Shown here in pieces: positions 47,673-57,934 of a stretch of DNA of 64,000 bases (position 1 is its first letter; each line of letters opens with the position of its first letter). The stretch is taken from assembly GCA_963668715.1 (NCBI GenBank), contig OY764960.1, positions 2,511,602 through 2,575,601 on the forward strand, given 5' to 3'. The notes beneath the pieces were generated by a model, which was not told the origin of the DNA, made no database searches, and saw only the letters and a program-made list of their open reading frames with translations. Origin of the DNA: Bacteroidales bacterium (GTDB lineage: Bacteria; Bacteroidota; Bacteroidia; Bacteroidales; VadinHA17). A program made the position numbers and the translations under genes.

Positions 47673-48752
47673 CTAATGTCGTGTATTCATCTTACGTATA
47701 TTTTCCTTTATTTCCTCAGCTTCTTCCGAAAGAAGGAAATTTTTGGTCACTTCGGGCAGGAAATCCAGATATTTATCCAACTCGTTATTTTTTATTGCTT
47801 CTCTTATCACAGAAGCACTTATATAATGTGATTCATTGTCAGCCACACTTTTTATCCTTTCCGTTTCAATTAGTTTTATCCCTTTTTCAGGCAGCAGTTT
47901 TTTCATTGCCTTATTATATGCTGCTGTTGTATTACAGTAATTCTCAGTTCCCACATAACGTTTGTTTATTCCGAGAACAGGAACAATATATTTGCGGAAA
48001 ATTTCTATATCCAGTTCACACTGCCCTGCAATACGTTCCTCCTCACCTGTCCCCTTAAGGAAATAGGAGGGAAATGTTTTACCGGAAACAATATAATCAC
48101 CGCCGGGTATCATAATTACATTATTGAGGTGAGAGATACCTTTACTTATGATTTCCCATCGTTTTTCGAAAGGAAAAACAGACAGATCTTCCTGCACTAC
48201 AAAAAGGTATACCCATTCATTTTCCCCGGAAGCTTTTTCAATGAGATATTTGTGCCCGTTTGTAAAAGGATTGCAGTTAACTACAATTGAAGCAATATCG
48301 TTTGTCCTCGCTGTTTGCTTATATACGGCAAGGTCATTTTGAAAATCGGTTATTGTTTTTGTTCCGAATTCCAGTAACGAATAATAAGGAGGAGCAGAGG
48401 CAATATGTTTAAATCCCAGTCCGCCAAAAACAACTTTGTTTTCCGGTTTGGTATATACAAATACTGTACGGTATTCAGGCACAATAAGACCTGTAAGATG
48501 TGATATGATTTTTGAAAAGGCGGAAGTGTCCCGGTATTTCTTTGTTACAGCCACATATTTAAGTACATTTTTTTGGGATGACCCTGTACCTATTATATCT
48601 CCCTTAAGGTTGTACAGTATGATTGTATAGTCTACGCTTTCAGGTTCAAAATCAAAATCCATCCCACTAAGAAAGCTTTTGACCAGTTTTATGTCATAAG
48701 GATTTTGACGATCAATAATTTCTTCTCTGTAATCGGTGTTTTCAATAATCAT
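47673..48752 (-). CDS. citC: [Citrate (pro-3S)-lyase] ligase
   Basis: N-terminal acetyltransferase-like domain plus a cytidylyltransferase-like domain (IVVNCNPFTNGHKYLIEKA). The stop codon abuts repeat locus I. Confidence 0.85.
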   Translation of the reverse strand: MIIENTDYREEIIDRQNPYDIKLVKSFLSGMDFDFEPESVDYTIILYNLKGDIIGTGSSQKNVLKYVAVTKKYRDTSAFSKIISHLTGLIVPEYRTVFVYTKPENKVVFGGLGFKHIASAPPYYSLLEFGTKTITDFQNDLAVYKQTARTNDIASIVVNCNPFTNGHKYLIEKASGENEWVYLFVVQEDLSVFPFEKRWEIISKGISHLNNVIMIPGGDYIVSGKTFPSYFLKGTGEEERIAGQCELDIEIFRKYIVPVLGINKRYVGTENYCNTTAAYNKAMKKLLPEKGIKLIETERIKSVADNESHYISASVIREAIKNNELDKYLDFLPEVTKNFLLSEEAEEIKENIRKMNTRH

Positions 48753-48842
48753 TGTTGTAAGGTTCGGATCATTATTTTATTAGAATATATTACAGATCAA
48801 TCCCTTGTTTTGTTATCCTTTAATCTTAAATAAGAGGTCTGT

Positions 48843-55288: not shown

Positions 55289-55366
55289 CTCGTTTGAGTT
55301 TTATATCTGATGGGTTATTAATAATGTCATTAAGGTATTTTCTGAATGTTACCGGTTCATGACCGT

Positions 55367-57934
55367 TTAGAGGTCTCTCCTGCGGTATACGGAACTGTTT
55401 TTTTGTTTGTCGAACCGGTGATACGAATACACTTCATTTTCACTGTTTTTAATATATTGCTCATAATATCCGAAGTATTCATCAGGCTCAGGTATTTTGC
55501 CTGTAATTGATATTATTGAAGCTATCTCGGCAGACCCGAGATAGACCTGTGCCCCGTTACCCATACGGTTGTCAAAGTTTCTTGTTGAGGTTGAGAATAC
55601 AACAGAATTGTCGGGTACTCTTAACTGATTGCCCATGCACAATGAGCATCCCGGGATCTCGATCCGTGCTCCTGTTTTTCCAAAGTTCGCAAAACAGGAT
55701 TCTTCCTTTAACACAGATGCATCCATCCTTGTGGGAGGAGCAAGATATGTTCTTACACCGGGATTGAACTTTTTGTCCTCCCATATCCTGGCTGCGGCCC
55801 TGAAATGGCCTATATTTGTCATGCATGATCCTATAAATACATCCTGTATCTGAGTGCCTGCCACTTCGGATAATAACCTGACATCATCAGGATCATTTGG
55901 GCAGCAAACCATCGGCTCCTTTATTACGTCGAGGTCTATTTCAATAATATCATCGTAGCCTGCGTTTTTATCAGCTCTCAGTAATGTGGGTTTTTTAAGC
56001 CATTTTTCAGCCTCTGATATTCTGTTTTCCAGTGTGTCCTGGTCGGAATAGCCGTCTTCAATCATTGACCGCATAAGCGCTATATTGGACTTAACAAAAG
56101 AGACAACCGAATTTTCAGACAGATTAAAACAGGCAGCTGCCGCACTGCGTTCGGCTGAAGCATCGGTGATTTCGAAAGCCTGCTCTGCCGTTATGTCTTC
56201 AAGTCCCTCAAATTCGAGTATTCTGCCATTAAAAATGTTGATCTTATTCTTCTTGGGAACAGTTAGCTTGCCCTGTCTGACAGCTACATAGGGAATAGCA
56301 TTCACGATATCTCTTATTGTGATCCCTGCCTGTAGTTTGCCGGAGAACCTTACAAGGACAGACCCGGGCATATTAAGAGGCATAAAACCCAGGGCTCCGG
56401 CAAATGCAACCAGTCCTGATCCGGCAGGGAATGATATTCCTAGAGGAAAGCGGGTATGCGAATCTCCTCCTGTACCTACCGTATCGGGTATTAACATCCT
56501 GTTCAGCCATGAGTGTATCACACCGTCACCCTGCCGTAAGGCCACTCCCTTACGCGATGTTATAAACCCGGGCATCGTTTTGTGCATTCTGATGTCGGCA
56601 GGTTTAGGATAAGCTGCTGTATGACAAAACGATTGCATAAACAGGGGAGTCTGAAACCGAAGGCAGGCCAGCTCGGTCAGTTCGTCGGCCGTCATTGGCC
56701 CTGTTGTATCCTGTGATCCTACGGTCGTCATTTTAGGCTCGCATGCCGTACCCGGTAAAACACCGTCTGTTCCGCACGCTTTGCCTACCATTTTTTGTGC
56801 TAATGTATATGGCTGGCCGGCTTTGGGTACCGGATTTGCATTGCGTGTGAAAATATTGTCTTCAGGCATGCCCAAAGCTTCCCTGGCTTTACGGGTAAGC
56901 GAACGACCCGTGATCAGGTTTATCCTGCCGCCTGCCCTGAATTCATCTTCCAGTGTATCAGGAGATAATTTAAAACTTGATATAAGCCTGCCCGATTCAT
57001 CTTTAATCTTTCCTTCCCCGGTATAAATTGTTATGATGTCACCGTTATTGATTTCAGACACATCAGTTATTATCGGTAAACTGCCGGAATCTTCTGCTGT
57101 ATTGAAAAAAATAGGGGCTATTGAACCGCCTATGATTATTGCATTATTCCTTTTATTTGGAATATATGGTATGTCTTCCCCTATATGCCATAGCAATGAA
57201 TTACAGGCTGATTTTCTTGATGATCCGGTTCCAATGACATCTCCTGCAAAAGCCACCTTATATCCTTCTTCCCTCCATCCTGCTATTGTTTCGATGCCGC
57301 CGGGAAACTTTGATTTTCCCATTGACATAGCATGCAGCGGAATGTCGGGCCGGCTCCATGCTTCGGAAGCAGGAGAGAAATCATCGGTGTTGATTTCTCC
57401 TTCAACCTTAAAGACCTTTACTTTAATGACTTCCGGTAATTTCCCCTTTTTTATAAACCATTCAGCCTCTGCCCACGATTTCAGTAATGATTTTGCTGTG
57501 ACATGATTTTGTGACAGCCGGACAATCTGATCGAATGCGTCATACACAAGACTTATCCCTGAAAGTGCTTTTATCGCATTGTCGGCCAGATCATCTGATT
57601 TGAGGGCATTTATCAGAGGTTGGACATTATAACCTCCAACCATGGTGCCGAGGATTTCAACAGCGTCTTTTTTTGAAATCAAAGGACTGCTCAGATCAGC
57701 CCTGATGATATTATCAAGGAAGCCGGCTTTTACCTTTGCTGATTCTGTAACACCGGGTGAAATGCGGTTTTTAAACAGGTGAATTAATAATTCCTGTTTG
57801 CCCCCGGGAGGATCCTGGAGTAATTCACAAAGGCAGGCACATTGCTCCGGGTCAAGCGGTAAAGCCGGTATCCCCAGCTTTTTTCTTTCCTGCTCATGCT
57901 TCGAGTAATTTTCAAAGAAATTCTTTTTATTCAT
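55367..57934 (-). CDS. acnB: Aconitate hydratase B (bifunctional aconitase 2 / 2-methylisocitrate dehydratase)
   Basis: 855 aa. AcnB-specific N-terminal domain (ERKKLGIPALPLDPEQ). Fe-S ligand regions: FIGSCMTNIGH and IPGCSLCMGNQ. Confidence 0.9.
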   Translation of the reverse strand: MNKKNFFENYSKHEQERKKLGIPALPLDPEQCACLCELLQDPPGGKQELLIHLFKNRISPGVTESAKVKAGFLDNIIRADLSSPLISKKDAVEILGTMVGGYNVQPLINALKSDDLADNAIKALSGISLVYDAFDQIVRLSQNHVTAKSLLKSWAEAEWFIKKGKLPEVIKVKVFKVEGEINTDDFSPASEAWSRPDIPLHAMSMGKSKFPGGIETIAGWREEGYKVAFAGDVIGTGSSRKSACNSLLWHIGEDIPYIPNKRNNAIIIGGSIAPIFFNTAEDSGSLPIITDVSEINNGDIITIYTGEGKIKDESGRLISSFKLSPDTLEDEFRAGGRINLITGRSLTRKAREALGMPEDNIFTRNANPVPKAGQPYTLAQKMVGKACGTDGVLPGTACEPKMTTVGSQDTTGPMTADELTELACLRFQTPLFMQSFCHTAAYPKPADIRMHKTMPGFITSRKGVALRQGDGVIHSWLNRMLIPDTVGTGGDSHTRFPLGISFPAGSGLVAFAGALGFMPLNMPGSVLVRFSGKLQAGITIRDIVNAIPYVAVRQGKLTVPKKNKINIFNGRILEFEGLEDITAEQAFEITDASAERSAAAACFNLSENSVVSFVKSNIALMRSMIEDGYSDQDTLENRISEAEKWLKKPTLLRADKNAGYDDIIEIDLDVIKEPMVCCPNDPDDVRLLSEVAGTQIQDVFIGSCMTNIGHFRAAARIWEDKKFNPGVRTYLAPPTRMDASVLKEESCFANFGKTGARIEIPGCSLCMGNQLRVPDNSVVFSTSTRNFDNRMGNGAQVYLGSAEIASIISITGKIPEPDEYFGYYEQYIKNSENEVYSYHRFDKQKNSSVYRRRDL

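What the first reader, a model, noticed from the sequence alone, without database searches (positions are those of the whole stretch)
47673..57934. Seven-gene cluster joins aconitase B and monomeric IDH to a complete citrate lyase system
**What the sequence shows.** The genes are co-directional with spacers of 78, 57, 18, 5, 0 and 90 bp, in the order acnB, icd, citD, citE, citF, citXG, citC. This is consistent with one 10.3-kb operon.

**Established knowledge.** CitDEF with CitC, CitX and CitG is the ATP-independent citrate lyase and its activation machinery. It is classically clustered with a citrate carrier and oxaloacetate decarboxylase for citrate fermentation. From memory, the citrate-to-2-oxoglutarate genes of Bacteroides fragilis are reported to cluster with citrate synthase.

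**What differs here.** No transporter, oxaloacetate decarboxylase or citrate synthase is adjacent. The lyase occupies the position a citrate synthase might hold.

**Inference.** The module links oxaloacetate plus acetate to 2-oxoglutarate through citrate. Three uses are possible:
1. Catabolically, from glutamate or 2-oxoglutarate by reductive carboxylation to citrate, then cleavage.
2. To split imported citrate between cleavage and glutamate synthesis.
3. More speculatively, with the lyase running toward citrate in acetate-rich habitats.
Basis: partly seen in the sequence, partly recalled or inferred. Interest (0 to 1): 0.6.

Follow-up and report, generated by a model that had tools for sequence, protein, structure and literature searches.

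The report
Aconitase-IDH-citrate lyase operon without citrate synthase
A Bacteroidales bacterium with no citrate synthase and no recognisable citrate carrier keeps aconitase, isocitrate dehydrogenase and a complete citrate lyase in one conserved gene block, which points to an undescribed ATP-free route between 2-oxoglutarate and oxaloacetate plus acetate.

Summary
Seven co-directional minus-strand genes (acnB, monomeric NADP-icd, citD, citE, citF, citXG, citC) lie at 47673-57934 with spacers of 78, 57, 18, 5, 0 and 90 bp.

The block is a conserved functional module, not a chance adjacency. I found aconitase + IDH + citDEF linked in 6 other genomes and 6 metagenome contigs. Parts are swapped for non-orthologous ones:
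- a dimeric IDH in G021
- an AcnA-type aconitase, divergently transcribed, in G179
- a dimeric IDH plus an AcnA-like aconitase on a Bathyarchaeia-labelled contig

The closed 4.27-Mb genome has no citrate synthase, no Re-citrate synthase candidate, no ATP-citrate lyase, and no 2HCT, DASS or CitMHS carrier. Four of 7 linked genomes lack citrate synthase, against 0 of 24 unlinked cit+ relatives.

The three enzymes therefore form a linear route between 2-oxoglutarate and oxaloacetate + acetate. I judge the reductive, citrate-cleaving direction most likely (about 0.5). It would serve glutamate/2-oxoglutarate catabolism or close a reductive TCA loop without ATP-citrate lyase. Citrate import and lyase reversal remain open.

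I found no published description. Verdict: new variant of a known kind, interest about 0.65.

The parts
55367..57934 (-). acnB, aconitate hydratase B (855 aa), first gene of the block
   Evidence: TIGR00117 scores 1295.1, above the 1287.2 cut-off. Pfam Aconitase_B_N, Aconitase_2_N and Aconitase domains are present. It is the only AcnB in the genome.
53054..55288 (-). icd, monomeric NADP-dependent isocitrate dehydrogenase (744 aa)
   Evidence: TIGR00178 scores 1302.7, above the 950 cut-off. PF03971 scores 1302. It is the only copy in the genome.
52706..52996 (-). citD, citrate lyase acyl carrier protein (gamma subunit, 96 aa)
   Evidence: TIGR01608 scores 84, above the 63.5 cut-off. The prosthetic-group serine (E. 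coli Ser14, motif ES[SG]D) is conserved in an alignment with E. coli CitD.
51797..52687 (-). citE, citryl-ACP oxaloacetate-lyase (beta subunit, 296 aa)
   Evidence: The best NCBIfam hit is TIGR01588 citE at 312 bits, below its 443 equivalog cut-off. Pfam HpcH_HpaI scores 210 bits. It is 63-82% identical to the CitE of relatives' citDEF blocks.
50232..51791 (-). citF, citrate:acetyl-ACP transferase (alpha subunit, 519 aa)
   Evidence: TIGR01584 scores 663, above the 501 cut-off. PF04223 scores 619. It belongs to a Bacteroidota CitF clade with 100% SH-aLRT support.
48843..50231 (-). citXG, fused holo-ACP synthase (CitX, residues 2-162) and triphosphoribosyl-dephospho-CoA synthase (CitG, residues 177-455)
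   Evidence: PF03802 scores 95.9 and PF01874 scores 199, both above threshold. The NCBIfam domain models are the best hits but fall below their equivalog cut-offs. It is the only copy in the genome.
47673..48752 (-). citC, [citrate lyase] ligase that acetylates the ACP thiol (359 aa), last gene of the block
   Evidence: TIGR00124 scores 284.7, above the 262.1 cut-off. PF08218 scores 225. It is the only copy in the genome.
57935..58501 (-). 567-bp upstream region shared with divergent gldB. It holds a strongly structured leader and an ATGTTATACAACAT palindrome (58405-58418, + strand; 5'-ATGTTGTATAACAT-3' as read on the acnB strand).
   Evidence: Folding 58060-58260 (minus strand) gives -57.9 kcal/mol, z = -4.96, with a terminator-like hairpin at 58089-58119. 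There is no Rfam match at E<=1. The leader is not conserved in relatives. The palindrome class has 17 copies in the genome, 13 of them intergenic.

Best explanation
**What it is.** The seven genes form one conserved metabolic module, probably an operon. It encodes a complete, self-activating ATP-independent citrate lyase: CitDEF, CitX-CitG to build the prosthetic group, and CitC to acetylate it. It also encodes the two enzymes that connect citrate with 2-oxoglutarate, AcnB and NADP-IDH.

**Why it must be a linear route.** This genome has no citrate synthase, no ATP-citrate lyase and no recognisable citrate carrier. The three activities can therefore only act in series between 2-oxoglutarate (+CO2 + NADPH) and oxaloacetate + acetate.

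**Most likely direction.** I judge the reductive, citrate-cleaving direction most likely:
1. 2-oxoglutarate + CO2 + NADPH -> isocitrate (IDH running in reverse)
2. isocitrate -> citrate (AcnB)
3. citrate -> oxaloacetate + acetate (CitDEF)

**Possible roles.**
- It would give an anaerobe a redox-neutral way to turn 2-oxoglutarate from glutamate-family amino acids into C4 and C2 units without oxidising succinate. NADP-type GdhA homologues are present.
- Together with fumarate reductase, succinyl-CoA synthetase and 2-oxoacid:ferredoxin oxidoreductase, it could close a reductive TCA loop without ATP-citrate lyase.

**Shown versus inferred.** Shown: gene identities, conservation of the linkage, and the absences in this genome. 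Inferred: co-transcription, direction of flux and physiological role.
For: **The linkage is under selection.** Genes for aconitase, IDH and citDEF lie together in:
- the window's own genome
- G208 (L013) and G209 (L014), with the same seven-gene order
- G096 and G162, where citXG-citC sit elsewhere
- G021, which has AcnB plus a dimeric PF00180 IDH
- G179, which has a 755-aa AcnA-type aconitase plus monomeric IDH, divergent from citDEFXGC across 95 bp
- six metagenome contigs, including L102 with the full seven-gene order, all in unrelated flanks
- a Bathyarchaeia-labelled contig with NADP-IDH, aconitase, citD, citE, citF and citX

G021's CitF is sister to L014's, so the IDH was replaced in place. 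In unlinked relatives icd stands alone.

**No other source or sink for citrate in this genome.**
- PF00285 is absent, and E. coli GltA finds nothing by tblastn.
- The only HMGL-like genes are leuA and cimA-like.
- 2HCT and DASS are absent.
- The single 'CitMHS' hit is an NhaD antiporter.
- There is no CitT and no CitA-type sensor.
- None of the roughly 40 Bacteroidota cit loci examined has a carrier next to it.

**Citrate synthase is dispensable exactly where the linkage exists.** It is missing in 4 of 7 linked genomes and in 0 of 24 unlinked cit+ genomes (Fisher p about 0.001, not corrected for phylogeny). Among 12 AcnB-bearing genomes in a 201-genome sample of the order, the 4 without citrate synthase are the 4 with acnB next to citDEF.

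**2-oxoglutarate supply does not need the module.**
- A TIGR03710 2-oxoacid:acceptor oxidoreductase is present in all linked genomes tested.
- The genome has two GdhA homologues (56-59% identical to E. coli GdhA), frdAB-like genes, SucC, SucD, PEPCK, ackA-pta and a malic enzyme.

**Established knowledge (from memory).**
- Citrate lyase works physiologically as a cleaving enzyme. Its equilibrium constant is near 1 M, so cleavage is favoured at millimolar concentrations.
- The monomeric IDH of Chlorobium carboxylates 2-oxoglutarate in the reductive TCA cycle.

**Literature.** The idea that an ATP-independent lyase could close a reductive TCA cycle was raised for Ignavibacterium album (PMC3362086).
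Against: - There is no transcript, enzyme or labelling evidence. Direction rests on thermodynamic and genomic logic only.
- Three linked genomes (G208, G209, G179) and all unlinked cit+ relatives do have citrate synthase. The module is therefore not tied to its absence, and in those genomes citrate could come from the synthase.
- A citrate carrier from an unsearched family (MFS, TRAP, TTT, ABC, DcuC-like) cannot be excluded.
- The substrate specificity of the 2-oxoacid:ferredoxin oxidoreductases is unknown.
- CitE, CitX and CitG score below NCBIfam equivalog cut-offs, so substrate specificity is inferred from best hits and context.
- No E. coli-type malate dehydrogenase was found by tblastn, which leaves the fate of oxaloacetate unclear.
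Confidence: 0.5

Rival explanations
1. **Citrate catabolism from outside.** Citrate enters through an unrecognised carrier and is split between two co-regulated branches.
- The lyase branch gives acetate + oxaloacetate. The oxaloacetate is reduced to succinate or propionate and consumes reducing equivalents.
- The AcnB/IDH branch gives 2-oxoglutarate. This feeds glutamate synthesis, or is oxidised further to succinyl-CoA, and supplies those reducing equivalents.

Together they would form a redox-balanced citrate dismutation.
For: - The lyase set with CitC, CitX and CitG is the classical citrate-fermentation enzyme.
- Fumarate reductase-like genes, SucCD and a 2-oxoacid:ferredoxin oxidoreductase are present, as are a Na+-pumping methylmalonyl-CoA-type decarboxylase operon and two DcuC-like carriers.
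- E. coli is known (from memory) to need a co-substrate to reduce the oxaloacetate from citrate. An internal oxidative branch would remove that need.
- Several relatives have strong CitMHS-family hits.
Against: - The window's genome has no 2HCT and no DASS carrier, and its only CitMHS-type hit is an NhaD antiporter.
- G162 also has no hit in any of the three families.
- No cit locus in this clade has an adjacent carrier, citrate sensor or oxaloacetate decarboxylase.
- There is no CitA-like sensor.
Confidence: 0.2
2. **Lyase as citrate synthase substitute.** The lyase runs toward synthesis (acetyl-S-ACP + oxaloacetate -> citryl-S-ACP; then + acetate -> citrate + acetyl-S-ACP). AcnB and IDH pull the citrate to 2-oxoglutarate for glutamate biosynthesis in acetate-rich anoxic habitats.
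For: - Citrate synthase is lost only in genomes where aconitase and IDH are linked to the lyase. That is the pattern expected for functional replacement.
- In the window's genome the lyase genes follow acnB-icd directly, and no citrate synthase gene is adjacent or anywhere else in the genome.
- The lyase reaction has no ATP step and is reversible in vitro (from memory).
- The overall reaction from oxaloacetate + acetate to 2-oxoglutarate + CO2 + NADPH is near equilibrium.
Against: - With an equilibrium constant near 1 M (from memory), 10-50 mM acetate and micromolar oxaloacetate would give sub-micromolar citrate. That is far below typical aconitase Km values.
- The genomes have an alternative route to 2-oxoglutarate: a 2-oxoacid:ferredoxin oxidoreductase plus SucCD. 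About 40% of the order lives without citrate synthase anyway.
- Three linked genomes keep citrate synthase.
- I know of no in-vivo precedent.
Confidence: 0.2
3. **Adjacency without coupling.** acnB-icd and citDEFXGC are two separately regulated units that happen to be neighbours. The lyase would serve an unrelated purpose.
For: - In most cit+ relatives citDEFXGC is a stand-alone five-gene block and icd is solitary.
- The 57-bp icd-citD and 90-bp citXG-citC spacers could hold unrecognised promoters.
Against: - The linkage recurs in at least 13 loci with different flanks. It is rebuilt with non-orthologous aconitase and IDH, including one divergent arrangement and one locus on an archaeal-labelled contig.
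- In L013 icd and citD are 2 bp apart.
- The spacers hold no -7 box and no terminator.
- There is the association with citrate synthase loss.
Confidence: 0.07

Closest known systems
Citrate fermentation loci of Klebsiella pneumoniae / E. coli (citCDEFXG with citS-oadGAB-citAB or citT) and of lactic acid bacteria
   Same: The lyase machinery is the same: CitD with the prosthetic-group serine, CitE, CitF, CitX, CitG and CitC. The E. coli locus was fetched for comparison.
   Different: - There is no citrate carrier, no oxaloacetate decarboxylase and no CitAB sensor, either adjacent or (for the carrier families tested) anywhere in the genome.
- The gene order is citDEF-XG-C, with CitX and CitG fused.
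- The block is preceded by acnB and icd.
Oxidative branch gene cluster of Bacteroides
   Same: Aconitase and IDH are clustered with a citrate-handling enzyme in an anaerobic member of Bacteroidales.
   Different: - The citrate enzyme is an ACP-dependent lyase, not a synthase.
- The aconitase is AcnB, which is found in only 12 of 201 genomes of the order.
- The IDH is the monomeric type.
- The genome has no citrate synthase at all.
Reductive TCA cycle with ATP-citrate lyase or citryl-CoA synthetase/lyase (Chlorobium, Hydrogenobacter), and the proposal that ATP-independent citrate lyase could close it in Ignavibacterium album (PMC3362086)
   Same: - The route 2-oxoglutarate -> isocitrate -> citrate -> C4 + C2 is the same.
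- A monomeric NADP-IDH is used.
- A 2-oxoacid:ferredoxin oxidoreductase, fumarate reductase-like genes and SucCD are present.
   Different: - The cleavage is ATP-free and yields acetate, not acetyl-CoA.
- The organism looks like a heterotrophic fermenter.
- The I. album lyase is the CitF plus CitD-CitE-fusion type. That type corresponds to this genome's second, carrier-serine-less system, not to the cluster studied here.
Aconitase next to citrate lyase in anaerobic Firmicutes (e.g. Clostridium autoethanogenum CAETHG_1051-1055, PMC4022347; loci L034 and L046 here)
   Same: An aconitase-family gene lies directly beside citDEF.
   Different: - There is no IDH in those blocks, and a malic enzyme is often present instead.
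- As far as I found, they are annotated but not functionally explained.

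Membership tests
ATP-independent citrate lyase system (EC 4.1.3.6: CitDEF + CitC, CitX, CitG) | Acyl carrier subunit CitD with the serine that carries 2'-(5''-phosphoribosyl)-3'-dephospho-CoA | tested here: met
   TIGR01608 scores 84, above the 63.5 cut-off. Ser14 in the ESSD motif aligns with E. coli ESGD.
ATP-independent citrate lyase system (EC 4.1.3.6: CitDEF + CitC, CitX, CitG) | Alpha subunit CitF (citrate:acetyl-ACP transferase) | tested here: met
   TIGR01584 scores 663, above the 501 cut-off. PF04223 scores 619.
ATP-independent citrate lyase system (EC 4.1.3.6: CitDEF + CitC, CitX, CitG) | Beta subunit CitE (citryl-ACP lyase) | tested here: inconclusive
   The best NCBIfam hit is citE, but its 312 bits fall below the 443 equivalog cut-off. 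The Pfam HpcH_HpaI domain is clearly present. Its position between citD and citF is conserved in every citDEF locus examined.
ATP-independent citrate lyase system (EC 4.1.3.6: CitDEF + CitC, CitX, CitG) | Prosthetic-group synthesis and attachment (CitG, CitX) and acetylating ligase (CitC) | tested here: met
   PF01874 scores 199 and PF03802 scores 95.9 in one fused protein. CitC TIGR00124 scores 284.7, above the 262.1 cut-off. The NCBIfam CitG and CitX domain models are best hits but below their cut-offs.
ATP-independent citrate lyase system (EC 4.1.3.6: CitDEF + CitC, CitX, CitG) | Citrate cleavage activity of the complex | not testable with these tools
   This needs an enzyme assay.
Classical citrate fermentation locus | Dedicated citrate carrier (2HCT CitS/CitP, DASS CitT, CitMHS) | tested here: not met
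   None is adjacent. In the genome, PF03390 and PF00939 are absent and the PF03600 hit is an NhaD antiporter. E. coli CitT finds nothing by tblastn.
Classical citrate fermentation locus | Oxaloacetate decarboxylase (OadGAB or CitM) and a CitAB-type sensor linked to the lyase | tested here: not met
   - There is no OadA-type HMGL domain in the genome.
- The OAD_beta gene lies in a methylmalonyl-CoA-type decarboxylase operon 2.5 Mb away.
- A malic enzyme is encoded elsewhere.
- There is no CitA-like sensor.
Aconitate hydratase B | Equivalog-level match including the AcnB-specific N-terminal domains | tested here: met
   TIGR00117 scores 1295.1, above the 1287.2 cut-off. PF11791 and PF06434 are present.
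Monomeric NADP-isocitrate dehydrogenase | Full-length match to the monomeric IDH family | tested here: met
   TIGR00178 scores 1302.7, above the 950 cut-off, and covers residues 1-743.
Oxidative TCA branch (citrate synthase - aconitase - IDH) | A citrate synthase (Si- or Re-type) in the genome | tested here: not met
   PF00285 has no hit in the closed genome, while 13 of 14 control genomes are positive. E. coli GltA finds nothing by tblastn. The HMGL-like genes are leuA and cimA-like only.
Reductive TCA cycle (canonical) | ATP-citrate lyase or citryl-CoA lyase (both carry a citrate-synthase-like domain) | tested here: not met
   PF00285 is absent.
Reductive TCA cycle (canonical) | [quoted passage not shown] | tested here: inconclusive
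   A TIGR03710 alpha subunit (660 bits, above the 483 cut-off) and a beta subunit are present, but their substrate is unknown. SdhA/B-like genes, SucC and SucD were found by tblastn.

The most novel reading that the evidence does not exclude
In the citrate-synthase-less lineages (this genome, G021, G096, G162), the ACP-dependent citrate lyase is the cell's only citrate-forming enzyme. It would run in reverse as an ATP- and CoA-independent substitute for citrate synthase, pulled by AcnB and NADP-IDH to make 2-oxoglutarate from oxaloacetate and free acetate.
Probability: 0.15. Interest if true: 0.85.

Novelty: new variant of a known kind. Interest (0 to 1): 0.65.

Why it matters
All the enzymes are textbook, but the combination is not. 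It pairs a conserved aconitase-IDH-citrate lyase block with genomes that lack citrate synthase, ATP-citrate lyase and any known citrate carrier.

- **If the flow is reductive,** it defines an ATP-free, B12-independent way for anaerobes to convert 2-oxoglutarate (from glutamate, glutamine, proline, arginine or histidine) into oxaloacetate plus acetate. It could alternatively close a reductive TCA loop without ATP-citrate lyase. Genome-based pathway callers would miss this, or mislabel it as 'incomplete TCA' or 'citrate fermentation'.
- **If the flow is the other way,** it would be the first natural replacement of citrate synthase by a lyase.

Either outcome changes how the TCA genes of sediment and digester Bacteroidales, which are abundant degraders of protein and polysaccharide, should be read. 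The question is directly testable with 13C tracers.

Tried and rejected
- **Simple 'lyase replaces synthase' rule.** Rejected as absolute. G208, G209 and G179 have the linkage and also a citrate synthase.
- **Re-citrate synthase.** The two HMGL-like genes are leuA and a cimA-like gene inside the ilv/leu cluster, so neither is a candidate.
- **Carriers.** 2HCT, DASS and CitMHS were searched in 13 genomes. The window genome's only hit proved to be NhaD. ORFs flanking cit genes in Klebsiella and Firmicutes loci were blasted against the genome and recovered no carrier.
- **Conserved neighbours in relatives.** The flanks of cit blocks encode ClpB, ADP-dependent kinase, a response regulator, Fic, an aldehyde dehydrogenase, peptidases and UvrC. 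None is related to citrate.
- **Regulatory motifs.**
  - There is no TAnnTTTG box and no terminator in the internal spacers or upstream of acnB.
  - No k-mer or palindrome is shared by the upstream regions of the 7-9 linked loci compared.
  - There is no Rfam family.
  - The structured leader is specific to this genome.
  - The ATGTT-N4-AACAT site lies nearer to gldB than to acnB.
- **Single origin of the linkage.** The trees neither show nor exclude it. The CitF tree needs 4 changes and the IDH tree 3, but the well-supported branches allow 1.
- **Organism identity.** An exact look-up of the IDH returned nothing. The taxon stays 'GTDB order Bacteroidales, family with two sampled genera'.
- **Literature.** Seven searches found no description of an acnB-icd-citDEF operon. 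An eighth attempt was rejected for syntax.

Full report
**1. The observation**

The ORF listing shows seven minus-strand ORFs with spacers of 78, 57, 18, 5, 0 and 90 bp, exactly as reported:

| Coordinates | Gene |
|---|---|
| 55367-57934 | acnB |
| 53054-55288 | icd |
| 52706-52996 | citD |
| 51797-52687 | citE |
| 50232-51791 | citF |
| 48843-50231 | citXG |
| 47673-48752 | citC |

NCBIfam and Pfam confirm the identities.
- Above their equivalog cut-offs: AcnB (TIGR00117, 1295 vs 1287), monomeric NADP-IDH (TIGR00178, 1303 vs 950), CitD, CitF and CitC.
- Best hits at Pfam level but below NCBIfam equivalog cut-offs: CitE, CitX and CitG. This is a divergent lineage of the lyase.
- CitD keeps the serine that carries the prosthetic group.

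The flanks encode an outer-membrane beta-barrel protein, nadE, gldB (so the phylum is Bacteroidota), an M20 peptidase and a Crp/Fnr regulator. None is a carrier, a decarboxylase or a citrate synthase.

The internal spacers hold no Bacteroidota -7 box (TAnnTTTG) and no terminator-like hairpin. That is consistent with one transcript but does not prove it.

**2. The genome around it**

The window lies in a single 4.27-Mb contig that is 97.7% complete.

*Absent:*
- Citrate synthase. PF00285 has no hit while 13 of 14 control genomes are positive, and E. coli GltA finds nothing by tblastn. [quoted passage not shown]
- A Re-citrate synthase candidate. The only HMGL-like genes are leuA and a cimA-like gene inside the ilv/leu cluster. 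There is likewise no OadA or pyruvate carboxylase.
- Classical citrate carriers. 2HCT and DASS are absent. The one weak CitMHS hit is an NhaD Na+/H+ antiporter. E. coli CitT and the CitA-type sensor domain find nothing.

*Present:*
- a two-subunit 2-oxoacid:acceptor oxidoreductase (TIGR03710, 660 bits), plus a four-subunit type, PFOR and IOR
- SdhA/B-like fumarate reductase genes, SucC and SucD; no SucA
- two GdhA homologues, PEPCK, ackA-pta and two DcuC-like carriers
- a malic enzyme

CitXG and CitC are single-copy.

**3. Relatives**

A genome-collection scan with CitF shows that citDEF-citXG-citC is a conserved five-gene block. It occurs in a clade of Bacteroidota that includes Carboxylicivirga, Labilibaculum, Marinifilum, Ancylomarina, Prolixibacteraceae and several MAGs. 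This clade has 100% SH-aLRT support in the CitF tree. The block never has a carrier, sensor or decarboxylase next to it.

In a 201-genome sample of the GTDB order, this 'class-1' CitF occurs in 10 genomes.

Aconitase and IDH are linked to the block in the following places:

| Genome or locus | Arrangement |
|---|---|
| Window's genome | acnB-icd-citDEF-XG-C |
| G208 (L013), G209 (L014) | identical seven-gene order; icd-citD gap of 2 bp in L013 |
| G096, G162 | acnB-icd-citDEF; citXG-citC at another locus |
| G021 | acnB, a 399-aa dimeric PF00180 IDH, then citDEFXGC |
| G179 | 755-aa AcnA-type aconitase plus monomeric IDH, divergent from citDEFXGC across 95 bp |
| Six metagenome contigs | L102 has all seven genes in order, with AcnB 74% identical |
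| L054, a contig labelled Bathyarchaeia | NADP-IDH (TIGR00183, 632 vs 567), a 686-aa aconitase, citD, citE, citF, citX |

Further points on the linkage:
- The flanks differ in every case.
- In unlinked relatives the monomeric icd stands alone, with no aconitase beside it.
- G021's CitF is sister to that of L014, which has the monomeric IDH. The IDH was therefore replaced in place.
- Aconitase-family genes also sit beside citDEF in Firmicutes loci L034 and L046 and in C. autoethanogenum (PMC4022347).

Recurrence with non-orthologous displacement and in different orientations is the classical signature of a functional module. I put the chance that the coupling is functional at about 0.85-0.9.

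**4. Link to citrate synthase**

Citrate synthase is absent from the window's genome, G021, G096 and G162. It is present in G208, G209 and G179 and in all 24 cit+ genomes whose cit block is demonstrably unlinked. That is 4 of 7 against 0 of 24 (Fisher p about 0.001). This is not corrected for phylogeny, though the four genomes fall in three GTDB families.

AcnB itself is rare in the order: 12 of 201 genomes. Eight of these have citrate synthase and no class-1 lyase. The four without citrate synthase are exactly the four with acnB next to citDEF.

So aconitase and IDH persist without citrate synthase only when they are tied to the lyase.

**5. Mechanism**

In this genome citrate has no synthase, no ATP-dependent lyase and no recognised importer. 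AcnB, IDH and CitDEF can therefore only work in series between 2-oxoglutarate (+CO2, NADPH) and oxaloacetate + acetate. That much follows from the gene content. The direction is inference.

I favour the reductive, cleaving direction (confidence about 0.5) for four reasons.
- Citrate lyase is physiologically a cleaving enzyme. Its equilibrium constant is near 1 M (from memory), so cleavage is favoured at millimolar concentrations.
- The sequence 2-oxoglutarate -> isocitrate -> citrate -> oxaloacetate + acetate is close to thermoneutral under standard conditions and favourable at cellular concentrations.
- A monomeric NADP-IDH does this job in Chlorobium (from memory).
- The genomes have other routes to 2-oxoglutarate, so the block is not needed to make it.

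Two physiological roles fit this direction.
- **Amino-acid catabolism.** Glutamate -> 2-oxoglutarate yields NADPH through a GdhA-type enzyme, and IDH reversal consumes it. The product is a C4 and a C2 unit, with no need to oxidise succinate. This would run alongside the oxidative route to succinyl-CoA and propionate (mmd operon) and could balance its reducing equivalents.
- **A reductive TCA loop.** The block would close the loop without ATP-citrate lyase, as was suggested for Ignavibacterium album (PMC3362086).

Losing citrate synthase would also remove a futile acetyl-CoA-hydrolysing cycle with the lyase.

**6. Rivals**

- **Import and dismutation of external citrate (0.2).** This is biochemically attractive, because the two branches balance redox. 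It lacks a carrier in this genome and in G162.
- **Lyase reversal as a citrate synthase substitute (0.2 as a rival; 0.15 as the strict 'only citrate-forming enzyme' reading).** This fits the citrate synthase loss pattern. It is kinetically implausible, because equilibrium citrate would be sub-micromolar, and it is unnecessary given the oxidoreductase route.
- **Mere adjacency (about 0.07).** The comparative data contradict it.

**7. Comparison with known systems**

The lyase is a member of the CitDEF/CitC/CitX/CitG system, but the locus is not a classical citrate-fermentation locus. It is also not the Bacteroides-type oxidative branch cluster, and it is not a canonical reductive TCA cycle.

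Seven literature searches found no description of this block.

Earlier AI notes from this scan describe operons in other phyla that join lyase-type enzymes to IDH-like and aconitase-like enzymes, and they read them as running 'backwards'. Those notes are unchecked leads. They concern the carrier-serine-less CitD-CitE fusion type, of which this genome has a separate copy (see the items noticed in passing).

**8. Verdict**

- Novelty: new variant of a known kind.
- Interest: about 0.65.

Noticed in passing
own genome G000:C1:39826-42618 (minus strand; L059 6827-9619), outside the window: A second, non-canonical lyase pair: a CitF-like gene (454 bits to PF04223) and a fused CitD-CitE gene.
- It lies directly downstream of a Na+-pumping methylmalonyl-CoA-type decarboxylase operon (epimerase, carboxyltransferase, gamma subunit, biotin carrier, OAD_beta).
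- The fusion lacks the carrier serine: IRSD stands where class-1 proteins have ESSD or ESGD.
- CitF-like matches of this score class (about 440-490 bits) occur in about 45% of 201 genomes of the order. All 11 such genomes tested that lack the class-1 lyase have no CitG.
- It resembles I. album IALB_1146/1147 (PMC3362086).

Its function is unknown.
   Followed up: partly
own genome G000:C1:36833-38026 and C1:3723674-3727300: Two sets of genes of unknown substrate:
- an IDH-family dehydrogenase, best matched by homoisocitrate dehydrogenase (AksF) models at 249 bits, which sits 1.8 kb from the second lyase pair
- two tandem fused LeuC/LeuD-type hydro-lyases of 601 and 591 aa

Together they resemble the 'homocitrate-type' lyase modules noted elsewhere in this scan.
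   Followed up: partly
window 58060-58260 (minus strand): The leader upstream of acnB folds far better than shuffled controls (-57.9 kcal/mol, z = -4.96). It has three hairpins, and the last (58089-58119) is terminator-like and followed by U-rich sequence. It has no Rfam match and is not conserved upstream of acnB in relatives.
   Followed up: partly
window 58405-58418, 44797-44810, 44914-44927; genome-wide: The ATGTT-N4-AACAT palindrome occurs 17 times in the genome (about 11 expected from base composition). Thirteen copies are in the roughly 11% of the genome that is intergenic.
- Two lie upstream of the Crp/Fnr gene.
- One lies in the gldB-acnB intergenic region, 97 bp from gldB and 471 bp from acnB.
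- One lies 162 bp upstream of a gdhA-like gene (C1:2276126).

It is a candidate operator.
   Followed up: partly
L054 5270-12133 (DATKZI010000061.1, labelled Candidatus Bathyarchaeia): A co-directional block of NADP-IDH, a 686-aa aconitase, citD, citE, citF and citX sits on a 189-kb contig assigned to an archaeal MAG. This is either an independent assembly of the same module or a binning or transfer case.
   Followed up: partly
L034 6702-8651, L046 6291-8462 (Bacillota MAGs): Aconitase-family genes lie directly upstream of citDEF in anaerobic Firmicutes, without an IDH. C. autoethanogenum CAETHG_1051-1055 has the same arrangement according to PMC4022347.
   Followed up: no
own genome, whole: E. 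coli Mdh finds no homologue by tblastn, even at E = 10. SucC and SucD are encoded 3 Mb apart (C1:775943-777115 and C1:3815024-3815890). The route from oxaloacetate to malate is therefore unclear; it may go through the malic enzyme, aspartase or another MDH type.
   Followed up: no
window 47359-47672: The spacer downstream of citC holds tandem heptamers (GTGAATA x3, then GTGACGA x3) followed by a GC-rich hairpin. Two TATATTTG -7 boxes for the next gene follow. Other notes on this genome describe the hairpin as a mosaic repeat.
   Followed up: no
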